From a virus, in IMG/VR virus record IMGVR_UViG_3300025030_001854, positions 32,001-96,000 of that record: a stretch of DNA of 64,000 nt; one strand, written 5' to 3'. The position numbers and the translations under genes are program-made. Numbering within the stretch: the first letter of the stretch is position 1; every line of letters begins with the position of its first letter. The notes below the pieces were generated by a model. It saw only the letters and a list, made by a program, of their open reading frames with translations. It searched no databases and was not told the DNA's origin. Shown piece after piece: positions 1,561 through 38,942 of this stretch.

Positions 1561-2166
1561 TTAATCAATCCGAATAAGTCTTGAACCTCCACCTGGACTA
1601 ACCTCAACAGCCTTTTTAATGTCTTCTTCTGAAAGACCCCTTAAAGATTGGGCAATTTTCATAACTGTTCCATTACAAGGAAAATATCCCTTTTTGGTAT
1701 ATTTAAAAGCCCTCCTTAAAGAATCAACAACATTTCCCTCAAGTTTATTAACTCCAAGATGATTCCTTAAAGTAGAAATAATAGCTTCAGTAGTGGAATA
1801 AATTTGAGTTCCATTCCAAGCAAACTGACAAACAGTAAAATCAAAAGAATTAAATAAATCTTCTATCGAAGAATAATACTTAACCCTAATGCATTGAACC
1901 AACAAATCATCAAGAATAAAAGAGACAGCATTCTTATGTTCACTGATTTTTTTAAATCCCCTCTGTAAAAGTAATTGACAATAATTGTTAAACGCCTTCT
2001 CTGTTTCAAAAAAAACATCTACATCACTTAATTTCTCATTACCTTTAAACCAACCACGAATCGCCCCGCCAGCTATCCAACCAAATAACGATGAAGAGGG
2101 AATAGGAACAATATCGGGAATTTTTGGTCCTAACATCTGAAGTTCGTCAAGAGTAATAATAGTCAT
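1561..2166 (-). CDS. tRNA nucleotidyltransferase / poly(A) polymerase head-domain-like protein
   Basis: Class II NTase motifs IAGGAIR..DVDVFF and FDFTVCQFA; short (201 aa); FNSFD replaces the usual RRD. Confidence 0.7.
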   Translation of the reverse strand: MTIITLDELQMLGPKIPDIVPIPSSSLFGWIAGGAIRGWFKGNEKLSDVDVFFETEKAFNNYCQLLLQRGFKKISEHKNAVSFILDDLLVQCIRVKYYSSIEDLFNSFDFTVCQFAWNGTQIYSTTEAIISTLRNHLGVNKLEGNVVDSLRRAFKYTKKGYFPCNGTVMKIAQSLRGLSEEDIKKAVEVSPGGGSRLIRID

Positions 2167-2180
2167 AAATAATAAAAAAA

Positions 2181-2444
2181 TTTAAGAAAAAATAGCCGAG
2201 ATTCTGTGTTCCTTGCGGTCATCTTACATTTATCTCACTTTACAGTGGGGATTTACTAATAATCCCTGCTCCAACCTCGCCAGACTTTGGCGTATAACTC
2301 ACATACGGCTCTGGCTATTTAGGATTGCTTTGGATTTGTGGTATTAACGAGAATAAATTCTCTCCCAATCATCGAGTTAAAAAGTCTCGAACTTGTCCTC
2401 TATAATAGGGTTAGCCTATTACAGCGTAAGATTTTTTTCTTAAA
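2181..2444 (-). ncRNA. rnpB: RNase P RNA, minimal: catalytic domain intact, specificity domain almost absent
   Basis: P1 UUUAAGAAAAAA/UUUUUUCUUAAA; P2 UCUUAC/GUAAGA; P3 hairpin; GAGGACAAGUUCGAGAC pairs with ACAGAAUCUCGGCUA (P4 with bulged U); P5 CUUU/AAAG-CAA; P6 AACUC/GAGUU; P15-P17; P18 CACU-GUAA-AGUG; AGAUAAAUG; P19 CC-GCAA-GG. Confidence 0.88.
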
Positions 2445-2633
2445 TTAAAATAGTTCTCCATATTTTATCAATTTTCCATTTACTTCTTTAAGCATATAAC
2501 AATCAGCATATCCTAATTCATTTAACATTAAACGACTAGCAATATCTTCAGCTATATCTTTTTTAGAAGGACGGGACAACTGTTCTAAATATTCATCAGA
2601 TACTTCTACATCTATAAGCATTTTAATATTCAT
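2445..2633 (-). CDS. hypothetical protein
   Basis: 62-aa ORF ending immediately before the RNase P RNA. Confidence 0.5.
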   Translation of the reverse strand: MNIKMLIDVEVSDEYLEQLSRPSKKDIAEDIASRLMLNELGYADCYMLKEVNGKLIKYGELF

Positions 2634-2641
2634 AAAAATTA

Positions 2642-2830
2642 GAGTAGCTTTTGTTTTTTGCGGCGTTAGCCATGGTAGTGCTACTTATCCATCTACCGTA
2701 GTTTGGTCAATGTAGAGAAACCTTCGATGGCGTAGAATTTCCTCTGGTTTCTTTAGTTTGTTCTATTAGACACTTCTCAGCATCCGTCAATGACTCAAAG
2801 TGTTAATATATTCCGTTTTAACAACTACTC
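2642..2830 (-). ncRNA. candidate structured RNA of unknown family
   Basis: Intergenic; ends pair (GAGUAGUU/AGCUACUC); internal helices CACUU/AAGUG, AGAAACC/GGUUUCU, GGUAG/CUACC. Confidence 0.45.
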
Positions 2831-2855
2831 CGTGGCCTACGGATGACCAAATTGT

Positions 2856-7353: not shown

Positions 7354-7899
7354 TTATTTTTCTCCGTGATGGTCTATTGGCTTAAATGTTTTTTTGGACA
7401 TTATTTTCTTTACTTGTTCAAAAGAAATGGGGGTAAAATTATGGCAATCAACTCCTACGTCGATAGCTAAAGCATTTGGGTCGTCTGGAAGAGAATTGTG
7501 ACTATGACCATAAAGATTATAAGCCCCGTGATGACTCTTATTCCAAACCCTCATAGAATAATGACACAAAGTAATATCTTGCCCCTCTACTTTTATCTCA
7601 TGATATGTATCATAAGCGGCATAAAATTTTCGTCTATTTGCCCAAGCAAGACGGTCATGGTTACCTTTTATAAAAACAATTAAACCTCTTAAGCGACGAA
7701 AGACGATATCAAAATGATAATCCTCTCGCCCAAAACAGAAATCGCCCAAATGATAAACTAAATCTCCATCTTTCACGACGTTATTCCAATTATTAATAAT
7801 GGTTTCGTTCATTTCTACTGTATTAGAAAATGGACGATTGCAATAACGGCAAATATTAAAATGGTGAAAATGGGTATCGGCAGTAAAAAAAGTACTCAT
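7354..7899 (-). CDS. calcineurin-like metallophosphoesterase
   Basis: DTHFHH, HLGD, GNHD, CHY, GHSH motifs. Confidence 0.88.
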   Translation of the reverse strand: MSTFFTADTHFHHFNICRYCNRPFSNTVEMNETIINNWNNVVKDGDLVYHLGDFCFGREDYHFDIVFRRLRGLIVFIKGNHDRLAWANRRKFYAAYDTYHEIKVEGQDITLCHYSMRVWNKSHHGAYNLYGHSHNSLPDDPNALAIDVGVDCHNFTPISFEQVKKIMSKKTFKPIDHHGEK

Positions 7900-8105
7900 A
7901 CAATCCCAGACCAATAATGAACTCCAGTATAAGAAACCTTGGGTAAATAAATTCCAGATGGAGAACTAGAAGTAGGGCTAGAAGTAGGAATACTATTTTC
8001 TTTAAATTTCCGCACATAAGATGGCTCTGCCTTTGGCACAACCTTGGCGGCGAAAGCTCCAACTAAACCGGCACCTAAACGGGTTAAAAAAGCACGTCTT
8101 TGCAT
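7896..8105 (-). CDS. small protein with twin-arginine-like N-terminus
   Basis: MQRRAFLTRLGAGLVGAFAA. Confidence 0.5.
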   Translation of the reverse strand: MQRRAFLTRLGAGLVGAFAAKVVPKAEPSYVRKFKENSIPTSSPTSSSPSGIYLPKVSYTGVHYWSGIV

Positions 8106-10865: not shown

Positions 10866-10943
10866 TGGTAGGATAGGAGGGATTCGAACCCTCATTAGTC
10901 CATTATGCACACATTGTTTAGAAGACAAGGCCATTACTATCCC
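10866..10943 (-). tRNA. D-arm-less (rewired) tRNA-Arg(UCU)
   Basis: GGGAUAG-UAAUGGC-CUUGU-CUUCUAA-ACAAU-19 nt-GAGGG-UUCGAAU-CCCUC-CUAUCCU-A-CCA. Confidence 0.8.
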
Positions 10944-37612: not shown

Positions 37613-38559
37613 TCATTAATGATACTAATGATTTGTAGAAACGTCAAGAGGTTTATCGTCCTGAATAAAAACATAATCTTTCCAAGCAGAATTATTTTGA
37701 TTTAAACAGGTAATAATTCGAGAAATAGTATCACAAGATTCTATTCCAAAAAAACTATCCTCAGTCAAATTTTCTCTCCAAATGAGCTTATTATAATAAT
37801 AAATAGATAATAAATCATTCTCTATTACAAGAAGAATCTTATCTATTTTAATTTCTGAACTGGAAATTTCTGCTTTTACAGCAATATTAAGAACTTTTGA
37901 AATATAATGAAGTTCTCTGACCAAACCTGTTGTTATCATACTAATAATTCTTTAAGAGCATTAAGAGATGTTAATATTTGACTTTCTCCAACAGTTTTTG
38001 TATCCTTGTGCAATTTGTGATATAATTGACACATTTCCCTATCTCTAGCCCTTTCCATAATAATAATCTGGTCTATTAGCTCTAAAGCTATTTTTAATTT
38101 AAGTTCAGGGGATAAATTTTCCATATTATTTAACAACAAATTTTGTGAGGGATTCTTTTTCGAGGCGTTTTTTATATTCTAAAGCATCTTTACGCCCTTG
38201 AGACGTTCGGGGGAATGCTCCGTATATGAAACGTTTTTTTTGAGATAATACTAGGTAACAAGTCTTTTTTTTCATGATGAATAAGTTCTCTATATTTTTT
38301 TAAATAAACGTCCATCTCTAAATCTTCCCTATGGAGTTTTTTTAATAAAACAGACAATTGACTACGCAAAAAATCCGCGTCATCGTCTCTATATTCTTCA
38401 TCGGCTTGTGTTATTTCTAATATTTTTTTATTAATTTCCTTTTCTAAGAAATTAACGCTTTTTATTATTATTAGTGCTTCTATTAGAAGTTTTTCTTTAA
38501 GAGAAACTATATCTTCCATAGATTATTAGACTAATAAACATAAAAAATATTTCAATTGA

Positions 38560-38942
38560 TGGACTCGGATGGAGTTGAACCATCGTCTTTAAAAAAATTC
38601 TCATTTGATGCTACAAGTTTATTTAATTATTAGTTCTTACTAAATACATAATTAACAAGAATCTTTAGTAATATTTAAATGATTTTTCCGTTCACATTTA
38701 AAACTGAACGTTTTTCCTCGCTGTTTCGACATATAAGATAGCGAGAATCTCTTAGATATCGGTATGACCATTAGTTAGGCCATAACAGTTTCGCGTTCAA
38801 GCGTGATAACACGCATAGAGGCGAGCTTTTTCACTAATTTGCTTTTGGCAGTTAATGTTTTGTCCGTTTATTTAAGTGGCCAACGAACGTCCACTACTTG
38901 CATCTAGTAACAATTTTATTAAATCGAAACCAGTACGAGCCC
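38560..38942 (-). ncRNA. ssrA: tmRNA; tag (A)AKSKLVKKLASMRVITLERETVMA* at 38775..38849
   Basis: GGGCUCG-UA-CUGGUUUCGA 5' end, G3.U70, T-arm GAUGG-UUCAACU-CCAUC, UUAACU-GCC resume context; CCA not encoded. Confidence 0.92.

What the first reader, a model, noticed from the sequence alone, without database searches (positions are those of the whole stretch)
2181..2444. Phage-encoded ~260-nt RNase P RNA lacking the specificity domain
Seen: the helices of a type A catalytic domain can all be drawn (P1-P6, P15-P19, P4 bulged U, P6 pseudoknot with the P17 loop, GNRA-capped P18). Only ~42 nt lie between P6 and the 3' strand of P5: a short P7-like helix and one GAGAA/UUCUC hairpin, with no L11/12 conserved regions. 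An extra hairpin (GGGAUU..AAUCCC) precedes P18. Established: S-domain-less RNase P RNAs are known from some Thermoproteaceae (type T); bacterial-type ones normally keep it. No RnpA-like ORF was recognised in the window.
Basis: partly seen in the sequence, partly recalled or inferred. Interest (0 to 1): 0.88.

Follow-up and report, generated by a model that had tools for sequence, protein, structure and literature searches.

The report
Phage-encoded miniature RNase P RNA
A large groundwater phage carries a 268-base, cut-down gene for RNase P RNA, the ribozyme that trims new tRNAs; it keeps the whole catalytic half, has only a 42-base stub of the half that reads tRNA shape, and sits in a phage whose own tRNAs have an altered 'elbow'.

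Summary
On the minus strand (2446-2179) lies a non-coding, 268-nt RNA with every helix of a bacterial type A RNase P catalytic domain: P1-P6, P15-P18, the bulged U in P4, the P6 pseudoknot and the L15 GGU. A 42-nt stub stands in place of the specificity domain.

Rfam gives no RNase P hit on the window. However, two covariance models that I built from 18 related viral-contig RNAs, leaving the window out, each hit exactly this locus (57.5 bits, E 8e-12; 43.6 bits, E 1.5e-8). Some members of that family do hit Rfam RNase P models (L014 E 6e-13, L002 E 1e-9).

P2, P4, P5 and P6 covary across 20 sequences: 88% of cells paired against 34-45% when the partners are slid.

The RNA is most likely an active pre-tRNA 5'-processing ribozyme that uses the host's RnpA protein; no RnpA gene is present in the record. 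Activity and expression are untested.

This scan has noted the same kind of RNA on other phage DNA. Nine literature searches found no paper that describes it.

A feature special to this phage: 20-21 of its 22 detected tRNAs carry G instead of U at T-loop position 55.

The parts
2179..2446 (-). Whole RNase P RNA gene (268 nt, from the first to the last pair of P1)
   Evidence: The 5' end overlaps by 2 nt the stop codon (2447-2445) of ORF 2445-2633. The ATG of the next ORF (2166) lies 13 nt beyond the 3' end.
2433..2446 (-). P1 5' strand (AAUUUAAGAAAAAA); pairs with 2179-2192
   Evidence: 14 Watson-Crick pairs. The P1 columns covary in the family: 7 of 7 outer pairs change on both sides.
2426..2432 (-). 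P2 5' strand (AUCUUAC); pairs with 2221-2227 (GUAAGAU)
   Evidence: helix 3 is 89.3% paired, and 5 of 7 pairs have changes on both sides.
2400..2424 (-). P3 hairpin (10 bp, loop CUAAC)
   Evidence: The base of P3 covaries in the family.
2385..2400 (-). CR-I-like GAGGACAAGUUCGAGA. The P4 5' strand is 2393-2385, with bulged U at 2391.
   Evidence: Compare the RF00010 consensus GAGGAAAGUCCGG printed. P4 pairs with 2194-2201; helix 5 is 98.8% paired.
2381..2384 (-). P5 5' strand (CUUU); pairs with 2328-2331 (AAAG)
   Evidence: helix 6 is 100% paired in 20 of 20 sequences, and 3 of 4 pairs have changes on both sides.
2373..2378 (-). P6 5' strand (AACUCG); pseudoknot with the P17 loop at 2296-2301 (UGAGUU)
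   Evidence: for the window (5-6 nt complement). For the family: found de novo; helix 7.
2332..2373 (-). 42-nt stub that replaces the specificity domain. It has a P7-like helix (UGG/CCA plus GAU/AUC), a GAGAA-UUUA-UUCUC hairpin (2362-2349) and the conserved loop GUUAAUA (2348-2342).
   Evidence: R1 aligns it to the family consensus. In relatives, inserts of up to about 150 nt sit at the tip of this hairpin.
2325..2327 (-). J5/15 linker CAA, followed by the P15 5' strand UCCU (2324-2321) and AAAUAG
   Evidence: G119, A121, A122 and A127 are invariant in 20 of 20 sequences. The RF00010 consensus is GCAAggccAAAUAGG.
2280..2314 (-). P16 (CCAGA/UCUGG) and P17 (CGUAU/AUACG) hairpin with the 7-nt loop GUGAGUU
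2270..2279 (-). L15 3' side and P15 3' strand: CGAGGUUGGA. It includes GGU (2276-2274), the element that pairs with the 3' CCA of pre-tRNA in type A enzymes (established knowledge).
   Evidence: G171, G172 and T173 are invariant in 20 of 20 sequences, and they were not part of any selection pattern. The RF00010 consensus is CGGGUaggccGC.
2248..2266 (-). Extra hairpin ('P18a'): GGGAUU - AUUAGUA - AAUCCC
   Evidence: The same position holds a hairpin with a different stem sequence in at least 14 other family members.
2236..2247 (-). P18: CACU - GUAA - AGUG (GNRA loop)
2228..2235 (-). J18/2: AGAUAAAU (CR-IV-like)
   Evidence: The RF00010 consensus is AGAugAAUG. Its invariance in the alignment is partly by construction, because it was in the search pattern.
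2211..2218 (-). Mini-hairpin CC-GCAA-GG at the P19 position. It has only 2 bp, so the call is weak.
   Evidence: R2 treats it as an insertion. L020 and L039 carry longer hairpins at the same place.
2194..2207 (-). J2/4 plus the P4 3' strand: ACAGAAUCUCGGCU (CR-V-like)
   Evidence: 1 match in the window, 0.05 expected. The RF00010 consensus is ACAGAACCCGGCUUA.

Best explanation
This is a genuine phage gene for an RNase P RNA of bacterial type A ancestry. It has kept the complete catalytic domain and has reduced the specificity domain to a 42-nt conserved stub.

Inferred mechanism:
1. The RNA is transcribed on the minus strand, probably as part of the ORF62 - RNA - nucleotidyltransferase-like gene transcript, and is then trimmed.
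2. It folds through the P4 and P6 long-range pairings and binds the host's RnpA protein.
3. It removes 5' leaders from the phage's own pre-tRNAs (22 detected in the window) and perhaps from its tmRNA precursor.
4. Without an S-domain it cannot read the T-loop/D-loop elbow. Substrate docking would therefore rest on the acceptor stem, the leader and pairing of the encoded 3' CCA with the invariant GGU of L15.

Shown here: homology, fold, covariation, and conservation of the catalytic-core and CCA-binding motifs.

Inferred only: expression, the protein partner, catalysis and the substrate set.
For: (1) Family membership. CM R1 (5' half: P3, CR-I, P5, stub) and CM R2 (3' half: P15-P17, J18/2, P4 3') were built from 18 viral RNAs without the window.
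- R1 hits 2432-2318(-) at 57.5 bits, E 8.2e-12. This is the only hit at E<=10 in 64 kb.
- R2 hits 2332-2191(-) at 43.6 bits, E 1.5e-8. The next best hit has 19.2 bits.

(2) The family is RNase P. Of 18 family-type loci tested with Rfam, 10 hit an RNase P model:
- L037: 100.8 bits.
- L014: 50.1 bits, E 5.8e-13, aligned over model positions 1-367, with 110 S-domain positions replaced by 15 nt.
- L002: 40.6 bits.
- L088: 36.7 bits, and L020: 26.4 bits, both to the archaeal model.
- L039, L069, L048, L059, L131.

(3) Structure (20 sequences, 45 pairs).
- 88.4% of cells are paired, against 65.7% in shuffles (0 of 500 shuffles as high) and 34-45% with slid partners.
- 34 of 45 pairs change on both sides.
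- The covariation score is 0.567, against at most 0.161 when slid.
- The P6 pseudoknot was found de novo by a blind stem scan.
- J5/7 and its own P17 loop share a complement of 5 nt or more in 14 of 20 sequences, against 16% of the 380 mismatched partner pairs.

(4) Conserved core positions that were not part of any selection pattern: the GGU of L15, the G-AA of J5/15, and GAGGA.

(5) Substrates at hand.
- 22 tRNA genes and a tmRNA lie on the same strand.
- 18 of the 22 tRNAs encode 3' CCA by script; the count is 19 if the 25908-25979 gene is read in the register.

(6) Published biochemistry. The E. coli C-domain alone cleaves substrates with and without C5 protein, less efficiently, and depends on a P6-like pairing (abstract of PMC5839562). 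Natural type T RNAs lack most of the S-domain (PMC3579882, sections 3 and 5).
Against: - No public Rfam model detects the window's RNA.
- R2 did not recover the true rnpB in any of 5 bacterial genomes. Its hits at E 0.05-0.97 lie elsewhere than the RF00010 hits. Only 150 of 443-2464 first-look candidates per genome were scored.
- R1 does not hit full-length type A RNAs.
- Much of the family was collected with patterns containing the CR-IV/CR-V motifs and a filter for P4 complementarity. The invariance of those motifs, and part of the P4 covariation, is therefore by construction.
- There is no evidence of expression.
- No RnpA gene is in the record, and the host is unknown.
- P15 has a U.U mismatch, and the P19-like hairpin has only 2 bp.
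- C-domain-only ribozymes are less efficient in vitro (abstract of PMC5839562).
- No promoter-like or terminator-like signal above chance lies next to the gene (6 promoter-like sites found against 7.1 expected).
Confidence: 0.72

Rival explanations
1. Decoy rather than enzyme. The RNA mimics the catalytic domain in order to soak up the host's RnpA protein or pre-tRNAs, and so disturbs host tRNA maturation during takeover without itself cleaving efficiently.
For: - The S-domain is missing, and C-domain-only RNAs are poorer enzymes (abstract of PMC5839562).
- An animal virus (camelpox) encodes an RNase P-like RNA that lacked pre-tRNA processing activity in vitro and was discussed as a possible decoy (PMC3001073, passage in section 7).
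- No phage RnpA gene is present.
Against: - The elements kept invariant include ones needed for substrate binding and chemistry, not only for protein binding. These are the L15 GGU, the J5/15 A residues, the P4 bulged U and the P6 pseudoknot.
- The gene family sits inside or beside phage tRNA arrays. This fits a need for processing.
Confidence: 0.1
2. An active ribozyme whose main substrates are not tRNAs. It would process hairpin-type or operon RNAs of the phage (tmRNA precursor, Y-like RNAs, polycistronic mRNAs), which do not need elbow recognition.
For: - The S-domain, which reads the tRNA elbow, has been dispensed with.
- The window also holds a tmRNA gene and a PHROG 'RNA-binding protein' gene.
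- In this phage the RNA gene lies about 6 kb from the nearest tRNA gene rather than inside the array.
Against: - In most relatives the gene is flanked directly by tRNA genes.
- 18-19 of 22 tRNAs encode the CCA that matches the conserved L15 GGU.
- Nothing positive points to another substrate.
Confidence: 0.1
3. A decaying, non-functional remnant of a captured host rnpB gene.
For: - A large deletion of the S-domain.
- AT-rich, divergent sequence that no Rfam model recognises.
Against: - Compensatory changes keep P1, P2, P3, P4, P5, P6 and P15 paired across diverged phages.
- The stub itself is conserved.
- Close relatives from other metagenomes keep the same architecture: L286 at 71.8 bits and L304 at 63.5 bits with R2.
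Confidence: 0.03

Closest known systems
Bacterial type A RNase P RNA (Rfam RF00010; rnpB / M1 RNA)
   Same: The catalytic domain agrees helix by helix:
- P1-P5.
- P4 with a bulged U.
- The P6 pseudoknot.
- P15 with GGU.
- P16/P17.
- P18 with a GNRA loop.
- 7-bp P2 and 3-nt P5/P15 linker.
- CR-I, CR-IV and CR-V motifs close to the RF00010 consensus printed.
   Different: - P8-P14, with the conserved region CR-II, are absent. A 42-nt stub replaces about 150 nt.
- J3/4 is GAGGA-CA-AGUUC instead of GAGGA-A-AGUCC.
- The 3' motif is GGCUAU rather than GGCUUA.
- There is an extra hairpin before P18.
- The score is far below the Rfam threshold: no hit at all on the window.
- It is encoded by a phage.
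Archaeal type T RNase P RNA of Thermoproteaceae (PMC3579882; abstract and sections 3 and 5 read)
   Same: - A natural RNase P RNA that keeps the catalytic domain and lacks most of the specificity domain.
- It is missed by the standard covariance models for that reason.
   Different: - Type T has a 3-bp P2, a P15 one pair shorter and a 2-nt P5/P15 linker, with an archaeal-type core. This RNA has a 7-bp P2, a 3-nt CAA linker and a bacterial-type core.
- No Rfam family, type T included, matched the window.
- The reduction was independent.
Engineered C-domain-only E. coli RNase P RNA (Eco CP RPR; PMC5839562, abstract read)
   Same: - It shows that a type A catalytic domain without the S-domain still cleaves, with and without C5 protein, and needs a P6-like pairing.
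- It also shows that P18 is dispensable once the S-domain (P8) is gone. This matches the loss of P18 in several family members.
   Different: It is a laboratory construct with reduced efficiency. The phage RNA is a natural, conserved gene that keeps a real P6 and a conserved stub.
[quoted passage not shown]
   Same: A virus-encoded relative of RNase P RNA.
   Different: - It comes from a eukaryotic virus and is a eukaryote-type RNA.
- It is reported as inactive in pre-tRNA processing in vitro.
- It is unrelated in lineage to this bacterial-type RNA.
- I did not compare sequences.
Phage miniature RNase P RNAs noted earlier by this scan on other DNA (59 notes in at least 55 genomes; unpublished AI notes)
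   Same: - The same kind of object. My own searches found such RNAs in IMG/VR and metagenome contigs, mostly beside tRNA genes.
- The window's RNA matches models built from them.
   Different: - This copy is AT-rich.
- It carries the rarer GAGGACAAGUUC form of CR-I, both P18a and P18, and a P19-position mini-hairpin.
- It lies outside the tRNA array.
- It belongs to a phage whose tRNAs have G at position 55.

Membership tests
Bacterial type A RNase P RNA (RF00010) | P4 helix with a bulged U, flanked by the CR-I and CR-V motifs | tested here: met
   - AGU(U)CGAGA pairs with UCUCGGCU.
- P4 is 98.8% paired in 20 sequences, with compensatory changes at 4 of 8 pairs.
- Caveat: 16 of the 20 sequences were pre-filtered for P4 complementarity.
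Bacterial type A RNase P RNA (RF00010) | P6 pseudoknot between J5/7 and the P17 loop | tested here: met
   - Window: AACUCG pairs with UGAGUU.
- Family: found de novo.
- 5 of 5 pairs change on both sides, and 89.9% of cells are paired.
Bacterial type A RNase P RNA (RF00010) | P15 internal loop with GGU for the 3' CCA of the substrate | tested here: met
   GGU at 2276-2274 is invariant in 20 of 20 sequences. It was not part of any selection pattern.
Bacterial type A RNase P RNA (RF00010) | Specificity domain (P7-P14 with conserved regions CR-II and CR-III) | tested here: not met
   - Only 42 nt lie between P6 and P5 3'.
- In relative L014, Rfam skips 110 model positions.
- Any likeness of the stub loop GUUAAUA to the consensus GcAAaCCCC is seen by eye only.
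Bacterial type A RNase P RNA (RF00010) | Reaches the family's curated score (100 bits) | tested here: not met
   No hit at gathering score, none at E<=10, and none in the whole record.
Bacterial type A RNase P RNA (RF00010) | Site-specific 5' cleavage of pre-tRNA; works with RnpA | not testable with these tools
No PF00825 gene occurs in the 136.8-kb record.
Archaeal type T RNase P RNA | 3-bp P2, 2-nt P5/P15 linker, shortened P15 (PMC3579882, section 5) | tested here: not met
   P2 is 7 bp, the linker is CAA (3 nt), and P15 is 3 bp plus a U.U. No Rfam hit.
Archaeal type T RNase P RNA | Most of the specificity domain is absent | tested here: met
   42-nt stub.
Phage miniature RNase P RNA family (undescribed; defined here by models R1 and R2) | Significant match to both half-models built without the window | tested here: met
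   R1: 57.5 bits, E 8.2e-12. R2: 43.6 bits, E 1.5e-8. The E-values are rough because the calibration was shortened.
Phage miniature RNase P RNA family (undescribed; defined here by models R1 and R2) | Conserved stub: helix, GA, hairpin, GUUAnUA, helix | tested here: met
   Alignments.

The most novel reading that the evidence does not exclude
The S-domain-less ribozyme and the phage's recoded tRNAs form a matched, partly orthogonal tRNA-maturation system.

- The phage's tRNAs have G at position 55. Their D-loops lack GG and often read AG, which I read as A at position 18; that reading was not tabulated. This altered elbow would make them poor substrates for an elbow-reading host RNase P, or would let them escape host factors that read the elbow.
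- The phage's own elbow-blind RNase P RNA would process them regardless.
- Owning such a ribozyme is what allowed this lineage to rewrite the elbow of nearly all its tRNAs.
Probability: 0.2. Interest if true: 0.92.

Novelty: new variant of a known kind. Interest (0 to 1): 0.8.

Why it matters
- RNase P RNA is a universal ribozyme. Natural forms without a specificity domain were known to me only from one archaeal family (type T), and viral relatives only from a poxvirus RNA reported as inactive.
- A conserved, covarying, bacterial-type catalytic-domain-only RNase P RNA carried by phages would show that phages bring their own tRNA-processing ribozyme.
- It would give a natural minimal type A ribozyme for structural and mechanistic work.
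- It would explain why standard annotation misses these genes: Rfam fails on this one and on 8 of 18 related loci that I tested.
- In this phage it also makes a sharp question testable: does the tRNA elbow need to be read at all, and can a phage rewrite the elbow (G55) once its RNase P no longer reads it?

Tried and rejected
**Searches on the window and close DNA**
- Rfam on the window gave no RNase P hit. RF00010 on the whole record gave none either.
- blastn of 2100-2700 against 50,697 phage records gave no match.

**Pattern scans**
- Scan 1: 15 stretches. By inspection only 3 are RNase P-like (L002, L012, L014); the other 12 look like coding or chance matches.
32 rows passed my P4 filter. 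These include 3 duplicates and one evident false positive (L084).
- Stub-motif scan: 63 stretches. Only 4 full RNAs and 1 variant RNA were found among 62 matches.
3 of 120 matches passed (L286; L304, which is identical to L305).
- Prokaryote-genome scan for the AGAGGAAGUUC...CGUUAANACCA subtype: 23 stretches, 0 of 23 RNase P-like. Most (20) are one conserved stretch in cyanobacterial, chiefly Nostoc, contigs that looks protein-coding by eye. This is weak evidence that this subtype is absent from cellular genomes, because only exact patterns were scanned.

**Rows left out of alignments A2-A5**
- Duplicates: L109, L070, L107.
- L084.
- Long-insert members: L045, L057, L046, L064, L099, L063, L040, L039, L069.
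- Full-length or near-full-length type A RNAs: L037, L048, L059, L131.

**Tests of context and association**
- Synteny with the downstream nucleotidyltransferase-like gene: 17 loci encode a relative at 26-37% identity. None of the 17 has an R1 or R2 hit within the fetched flanks.
- Relatives of the phage found through a 334-aa protein: 3 loci. None has an R2 hit, and their few tRNAs have UUC T-loops.
- Hence the link between the recoded tRNAs and the mini-ribozyme could not be tested by comparison. In 27 other family loci with tRNAs, the T-loops are almost all UUC. So loss of the S-domain does not in general go with G55.
- Reciprocal search of 5 bacterial genomes with R2 found none of the 5 true rnpB genes.
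- The 201-aa neighbour matches only the PHROG 'nucleotidyltransferase' family, no Pfam family and no solved structure. I therefore do not call it a CCA-adding enzyme.
- Terminase and capsid Pfam families were not found in the record.

**Expression**
- No RNA holder is listed.
- Contigs laid from 3 runs show the DNA in groundwater samples that may be its source, and short pieces of relatives elsewhere. Nothing bears on expression.

**Literature**
Nine searches found no paper on a phage-encoded RNase P RNA. What I saw of each paper:
- PMC5839562: abstract.
- PMC3579882: abstract and sections 3 and 5.
- PMC3001073: passages.
- All others: search listing only.
The supplement of PMC3579882 might hold more type T detail.

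**Other**
- The resemblance of the stub loop to CR-III rests on my eye and on recall. It is a lead, not a result.
- E. coli position numbers and the roles of conserved nucleotides are recalled knowledge.
Full report
**Setting**

The window is bases 32001-96000 of a 136,838-base IMG/VR virus record, which CheckV rates 71% complete. The record lacks matches to three Pfam hallmark families: terminase PF03237 and capsid families PF07068 and PF05065. It does encode an RIIA-like protein (PHROG 612, E 8.6e-97), a phage-type DNA polymerase (PHROG 405, E 1.8e-156), a DnaB-like helicase and a thymidylate synthase outside the window. Inside the window it encodes a ribonucleotide reductase and a PHROG 'RNA-binding protein'. 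I accept it as a large phage.

The identical DNA stands in contigs of 8 run records from three studies (seven labelled groundwater, one soil), which may be its source. The window has 33% G+C and the candidate RNA 38%.

**The observation**

All neighbouring genes run on the minus strand. The stretch 2167-2444 is intergenic, between a 62-aa ORF (2445-2633) and a 201-aa ORF (1561-2166).

Read on the minus strand, the sequence can be drawn as a complete type A catalytic domain:
- P1: 14 bp, 2446-2433 with 2192-2179.
- P2: 7 bp.
- P3: 10 bp.
- GAGGACAAGUUCGAGA, whose last nine bases form P4 with UCUCGGCU and leave one U (2391) bulged.
- P5: 4 bp.
- AACUCG, which pairs with UGAGUU in the 7-nt loop of P17 (this is P6).
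- The linker CAA.
- P15: UCC/GGA plus a U.U.
- AAAUAG.
- P16: 5 bp.
- P17: 5 bp.
- CGAGGU, with the GGU of L15.
- An extra hairpin GGGAUU/AAUCCC.
- P18: CACU-GUAA-AGUG.
- AGAUAAAUG.
- A CC-GCAA-GG mini-hairpin.
- ACAGAAUCUCGGCUAU.

These motifs track the RF00010 consensus as printed by cmscan: GAGGAAAGUCCGG, GCAAggccAAAUAGG, CGGGUaggccGC, AGAugAAUG and ACAGAACCCGGCUUA.

Minimum-free-energy folding of the minus strand recovers the nested helices (-67.7 kcal/mol, z -3.66, 0 of 200 shuffles as stable). The plus strand folds less well (z -2.75).

Exactly 42 nt separate P6 from the 3' strand of P5.

**Public models fail**

- Rfam at gathering thresholds finds a tmRNA and 12 tRNAs in the window, but no RNase P.
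- At E<=10 on 2100-2900 it lists five junk matches and no RNase P family.
- RF00010 on the whole record gives nothing, with 2 candidates scored.

**Relatives**

Four pattern scans collected relatives.
- A scan of IMG/VR with a pattern joining CR-I and CR-V at the short spacing gave 15 stretches, of which 3 are look-alikes (L002, L012, L014).
32 rows have an upstream AGU-N-strand complementary to their own P4 3' strand. The P4-to-P4 spans run from 145 to 354 nt, and the window's is about 198 nt.
- A third scan with the stub motif alone gave 63 stretches. It added L175, L177, L184 and L187 out of 62 matches.

Most of these RNAs lie directly beside tRNA genes.

Rfam was run on 18 such loci.
- Ten hit an RNase P model: L048 (291 bits), L059 (274), L131 (188), L037 (100.8), L014 (50.1, E 5.8e-13), L002 (40.6, E 9.5e-10), L088 (36.7, archaeal model), L039 (28.4), L020 (26.4, archaeal model) and L069 (26.0).
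- Eight do not: L012, L095, L175, L177, L187, L108, L064 and L040.

The L014 alignment spans model positions 1-367 and replaces 110 S-domain positions by 15 nt.

So viral contigs hold a graded series, from full-length type A RNAs to RNAs with almost no S-domain. Rfam loses the more reduced or divergent ones.

**Does the window's RNA belong?**

I therefore aligned two halves of 18 relatives, with the window excluded (A3 and A4), and built two models.
- R1: 107 positions, 13 pairs. It covers the P2 5' strand, P3, CR-I, P5, the stub and J5/15.
- R2: 119 positions, 9 pairs. It covers P15-P17, L15, J18/2, the P2 3' strand and the P4 3' strand.

On the 64-kb window, both strands:
- R1 gives a single hit at E<=10: 2432-2318(-), 57.5 bits, E 8.2e-12, covering the whole model.
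- R2 gives 2332-2191(-), 43.6 bits, E 1.5e-8, covering the whole model. The next hits have 19.2 and 11.9 bits.

R1 contains little of what the collecting patterns demanded, so its hit is largely independent of how the family was gathered. L286 and L304 were found through a 5'-half pattern and kept by a short regex filter for the P4 3' (CR-V) motif. They score 71.8 and 63.5 bits with the 3'-half model R2. E-values from these models are rough because the calibration was shortened.

**Structure across the family**

The alignment is a MAFFT alignment of the window plus 19 relatives (A5).
- A blind scan for covarying stems recovers P1, P2, P3, P4, P5 and the P6 pseudoknot. The same scan without the window did so too.
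- Counting 45 pairs in 9 helices: 88.4% of 860 cells are standard pairs. Shuffles give 65.7% (sd 1.1; 0 of 500 as high). Sliding the partners by 1-3 columns gives 34.1-45.2%.
- 34 of 45 pairs show changes on both sides. The covariation score is 0.567, against 0.198 in shuffles and at most 0.161 when slid.
- Per helix: P5 is 100% paired, P4 98.8%, P6 89.9% (5 of 5 pairs with double changes) and P2 89.3%.

Caveats:
- The structure was read from this same alignment.
- The sequences are related to each other.
- 16 of the 20 were pre-filtered for P4 complementarity.
- In A5 the window's own P6, P16 and P17 columns are out of register.

For that last reason I tested P6 without an alignment. Each RNA's J5/7 segment was compared with the loop of its own P16/17 hairpin. 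A contiguous complement of 5 nt or more occurs in 14 of 20 sequences (mean 4.9 nt), against 16% of the 380 mismatched-partner pairs (mean 3.4 nt). At least a dozen different P6 sequences are seen. Six cases were degraded by wrong MFE loops.

The extra hairpin plus P18 recurs with different stem sequences.
- The two-hairpin arrangement is cleanly folded in 10 of 25 RNAs.
- It is visible at the end of four over-long extractions and, in expanded form, in L184.
- It is missing (0-4 nt) in five RNAs.
- In five more the extraction was mis-anchored.

Loss of P18 in S-domain-less RNAs fits the published finding that P18 docks on P8 and does not help a C-domain that lacks the S-domain (abstract of PMC5839562).

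**The stub**

Within the family, however, the motif is conserved: helix, GA, hairpin, GUUA(A/n)UA, helix. In the window it reads UUGGGAG...CGUUAAUACCAC. Lineage-specific inserts of up to about 150 nt sit at the tip of the hairpin. The loop faintly resembles the RF00010 consensus at the 3' edge of the S-domain (GcAAaCCCCac). I could not test whether the two are homologous.

**Negative and limiting results**

- R2 did not find the true rnpB in any of five bacterial genomes chosen without regard to RNase P. Only 150 first-look candidates per genome were scored.
- R2 does hit RF00010-positive RNAs on viral contigs: L131 at 42.6 bits, L037 at 28.0 bits and L048 at 24.0 bits. It does not hit L059. 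Those loci had been collected with a pattern that R2 contains.
- R1 hits no full-length type A RNA.
- The adjacency to the nucleotidyltransferase-like gene is not conserved: 0 of 17 loci.
- No RnpA gene is in the record.
- No promoter-like or terminator-like signal above chance lies nearby.
- The 5' end of P1 overlaps the upstream ORF's stop codon by 2 nt. This suggests co-transcription followed by processing.

**Mechanism**

What is shown:
- A conserved fold, identical in topology to the type A catalytic domain.
- Selection on the substrate-contacting elements (L15 GGU, J5/15, P4 bulge, P6).

What is inferred:
- The RNA is made, binds the host RnpA and cleaves the 5' leaders of phage pre-tRNAs.

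The window holds 22 tRNA genes by the union of three searches. 18 of them encode 3' CCA by my script, or 19 if one mis-registered gene is counted. This fits a ribozyme that must rely on CCA-L15 pairing rather than on elbow recognition. Biochemical precedent comes from C-domain-only E. coli RNA (PMC5839562, abstract) and from natural type T RNAs (PMC3579882). I put about 95% on 'true RNase P RNA homolog' and about 70% on 'active pre-tRNA processing enzyme'.

**A feature special to this phage**

- 20 of the 22 tRNAs have G at the second T-loop position in my script's register. One more does if its register is shifted by one. Only one (10869-10943) has UUC.
- The D-loops lack GG and often read AG.
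- The three tRNAs with A at position 56 carry ...AAAUU... in the D-loop, where C56 tRNAs carry ...AAAG.... This suggests that the 19-56 pair is kept.
- In 27 other family loci with tRNAs the T-loops are almost all UUC: for example 22 of 24 in L089 and 37 of 38 in L069.

So loss of the S-domain does not generally go with elbow recoding, but an elbow-blind RNase P may have made the recoding possible here. I saw the T-loop pattern before reading that note, and I could not test the functional link.

**Comparison and novelty**

- The closest family is bacterial type A RNase P RNA. The RNA meets the catalytic-domain features and fails the S-domain and score criteria, so I do not file it as an ordinary member.
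- It works like archaeal type T and like engineered C-domain RNAs, but it differs from type T in P2 length, linker length and core type.
- A poxvirus RNase P-like RNA is the only viral precedent I found in print (PMC3001073).
- Nine literature searches found no description of phage-encoded RNase P RNA.
- This scan has noted such RNAs on other phage DNA (59 notes in at least 55 genomes). Those are unpublished AI notes and are not evidence.

I rate it a new variant of a known kind, of high interest.

Noticed in passing
window 8607-28958 (- strand): Nearly all phage tRNAs have a non-canonical elbow.
- The T-loop is UGC, AGC, CGC or CGA instead of UUC in 20-21 of 22 genes.
- The D-loops lack GG.
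- tRNAs with A56 have U where C56 tRNAs have G in the D-loop.
- Only the gene at 10869-10943 keeps UUCGAAU.
- The tmRNA keeps a canonical GGUUCAACUCC T-arm.
- tRNAs of 27 other mini-RNase-P loci are almost all UUC.
   Followed up: partly
window 2634-2855: A second 220-nt intergenic stretch lies just upstream of the 62-aa ORF.
- Contigs from two unrelated runs match it: 196 nt with 8 differences in one, and 94 nt identical in a wastewater run.
- It is only weakly structured on the minus strand (z -1.98).
- It has no Rfam match.
- What it is remains unknown.
   Followed up: partly
window 1561-2166 (- strand): The 201-aa gene starts 13 nt after the RNA.
- It matches PHROG 1614 'nucleotidyltransferase' (E 3.9e-10) and three PHROGs of unknown function.
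- It matches no Pfam family and no solved structure.
- 17 distant relatives in viral contigs have no RNase P-like RNA nearby.
   Followed up: partly
window 38557-38942 (- strand): A phage tmRNA gene (RF00023, 109.8 bits). ARAGORN predicts an unusual, long tag peptide ending ...ETVMA.
   Followed up: no
L064, L099, L063, L046, L045, L057 (viral contigs): These are members of the same RNA family whose stub hairpin carries inserts of about 40-150 nt at its tip. The flanks UUGGGAG...CGUUAAUACCAC are unchanged. They look like lineage-specific expansions rather than a canonical S-domain, and L064 has no Rfam hit.
   Followed up: partly
L175:2751-2949 (-): This family member has ACAAGA instead of the otherwise invariant ACAGAA in J2/4. 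Its P4 is still fully complementary.
   Followed up: no
L048, L059, L131 (viral contigs): Full-length type A RNase P RNAs (291, 274 and 188 bits) sit on IMG/VR contigs. L131 lies next to tRNA genes. They could be phage genes, or host DNA on misclassified contigs.
   Followed up: no
window 7839-7947 (+ strand): A weak second hit of model R2 (19.2 bits, E 0.011), on the strand opposite to the genes. It is probably chance.
   Followed up: no
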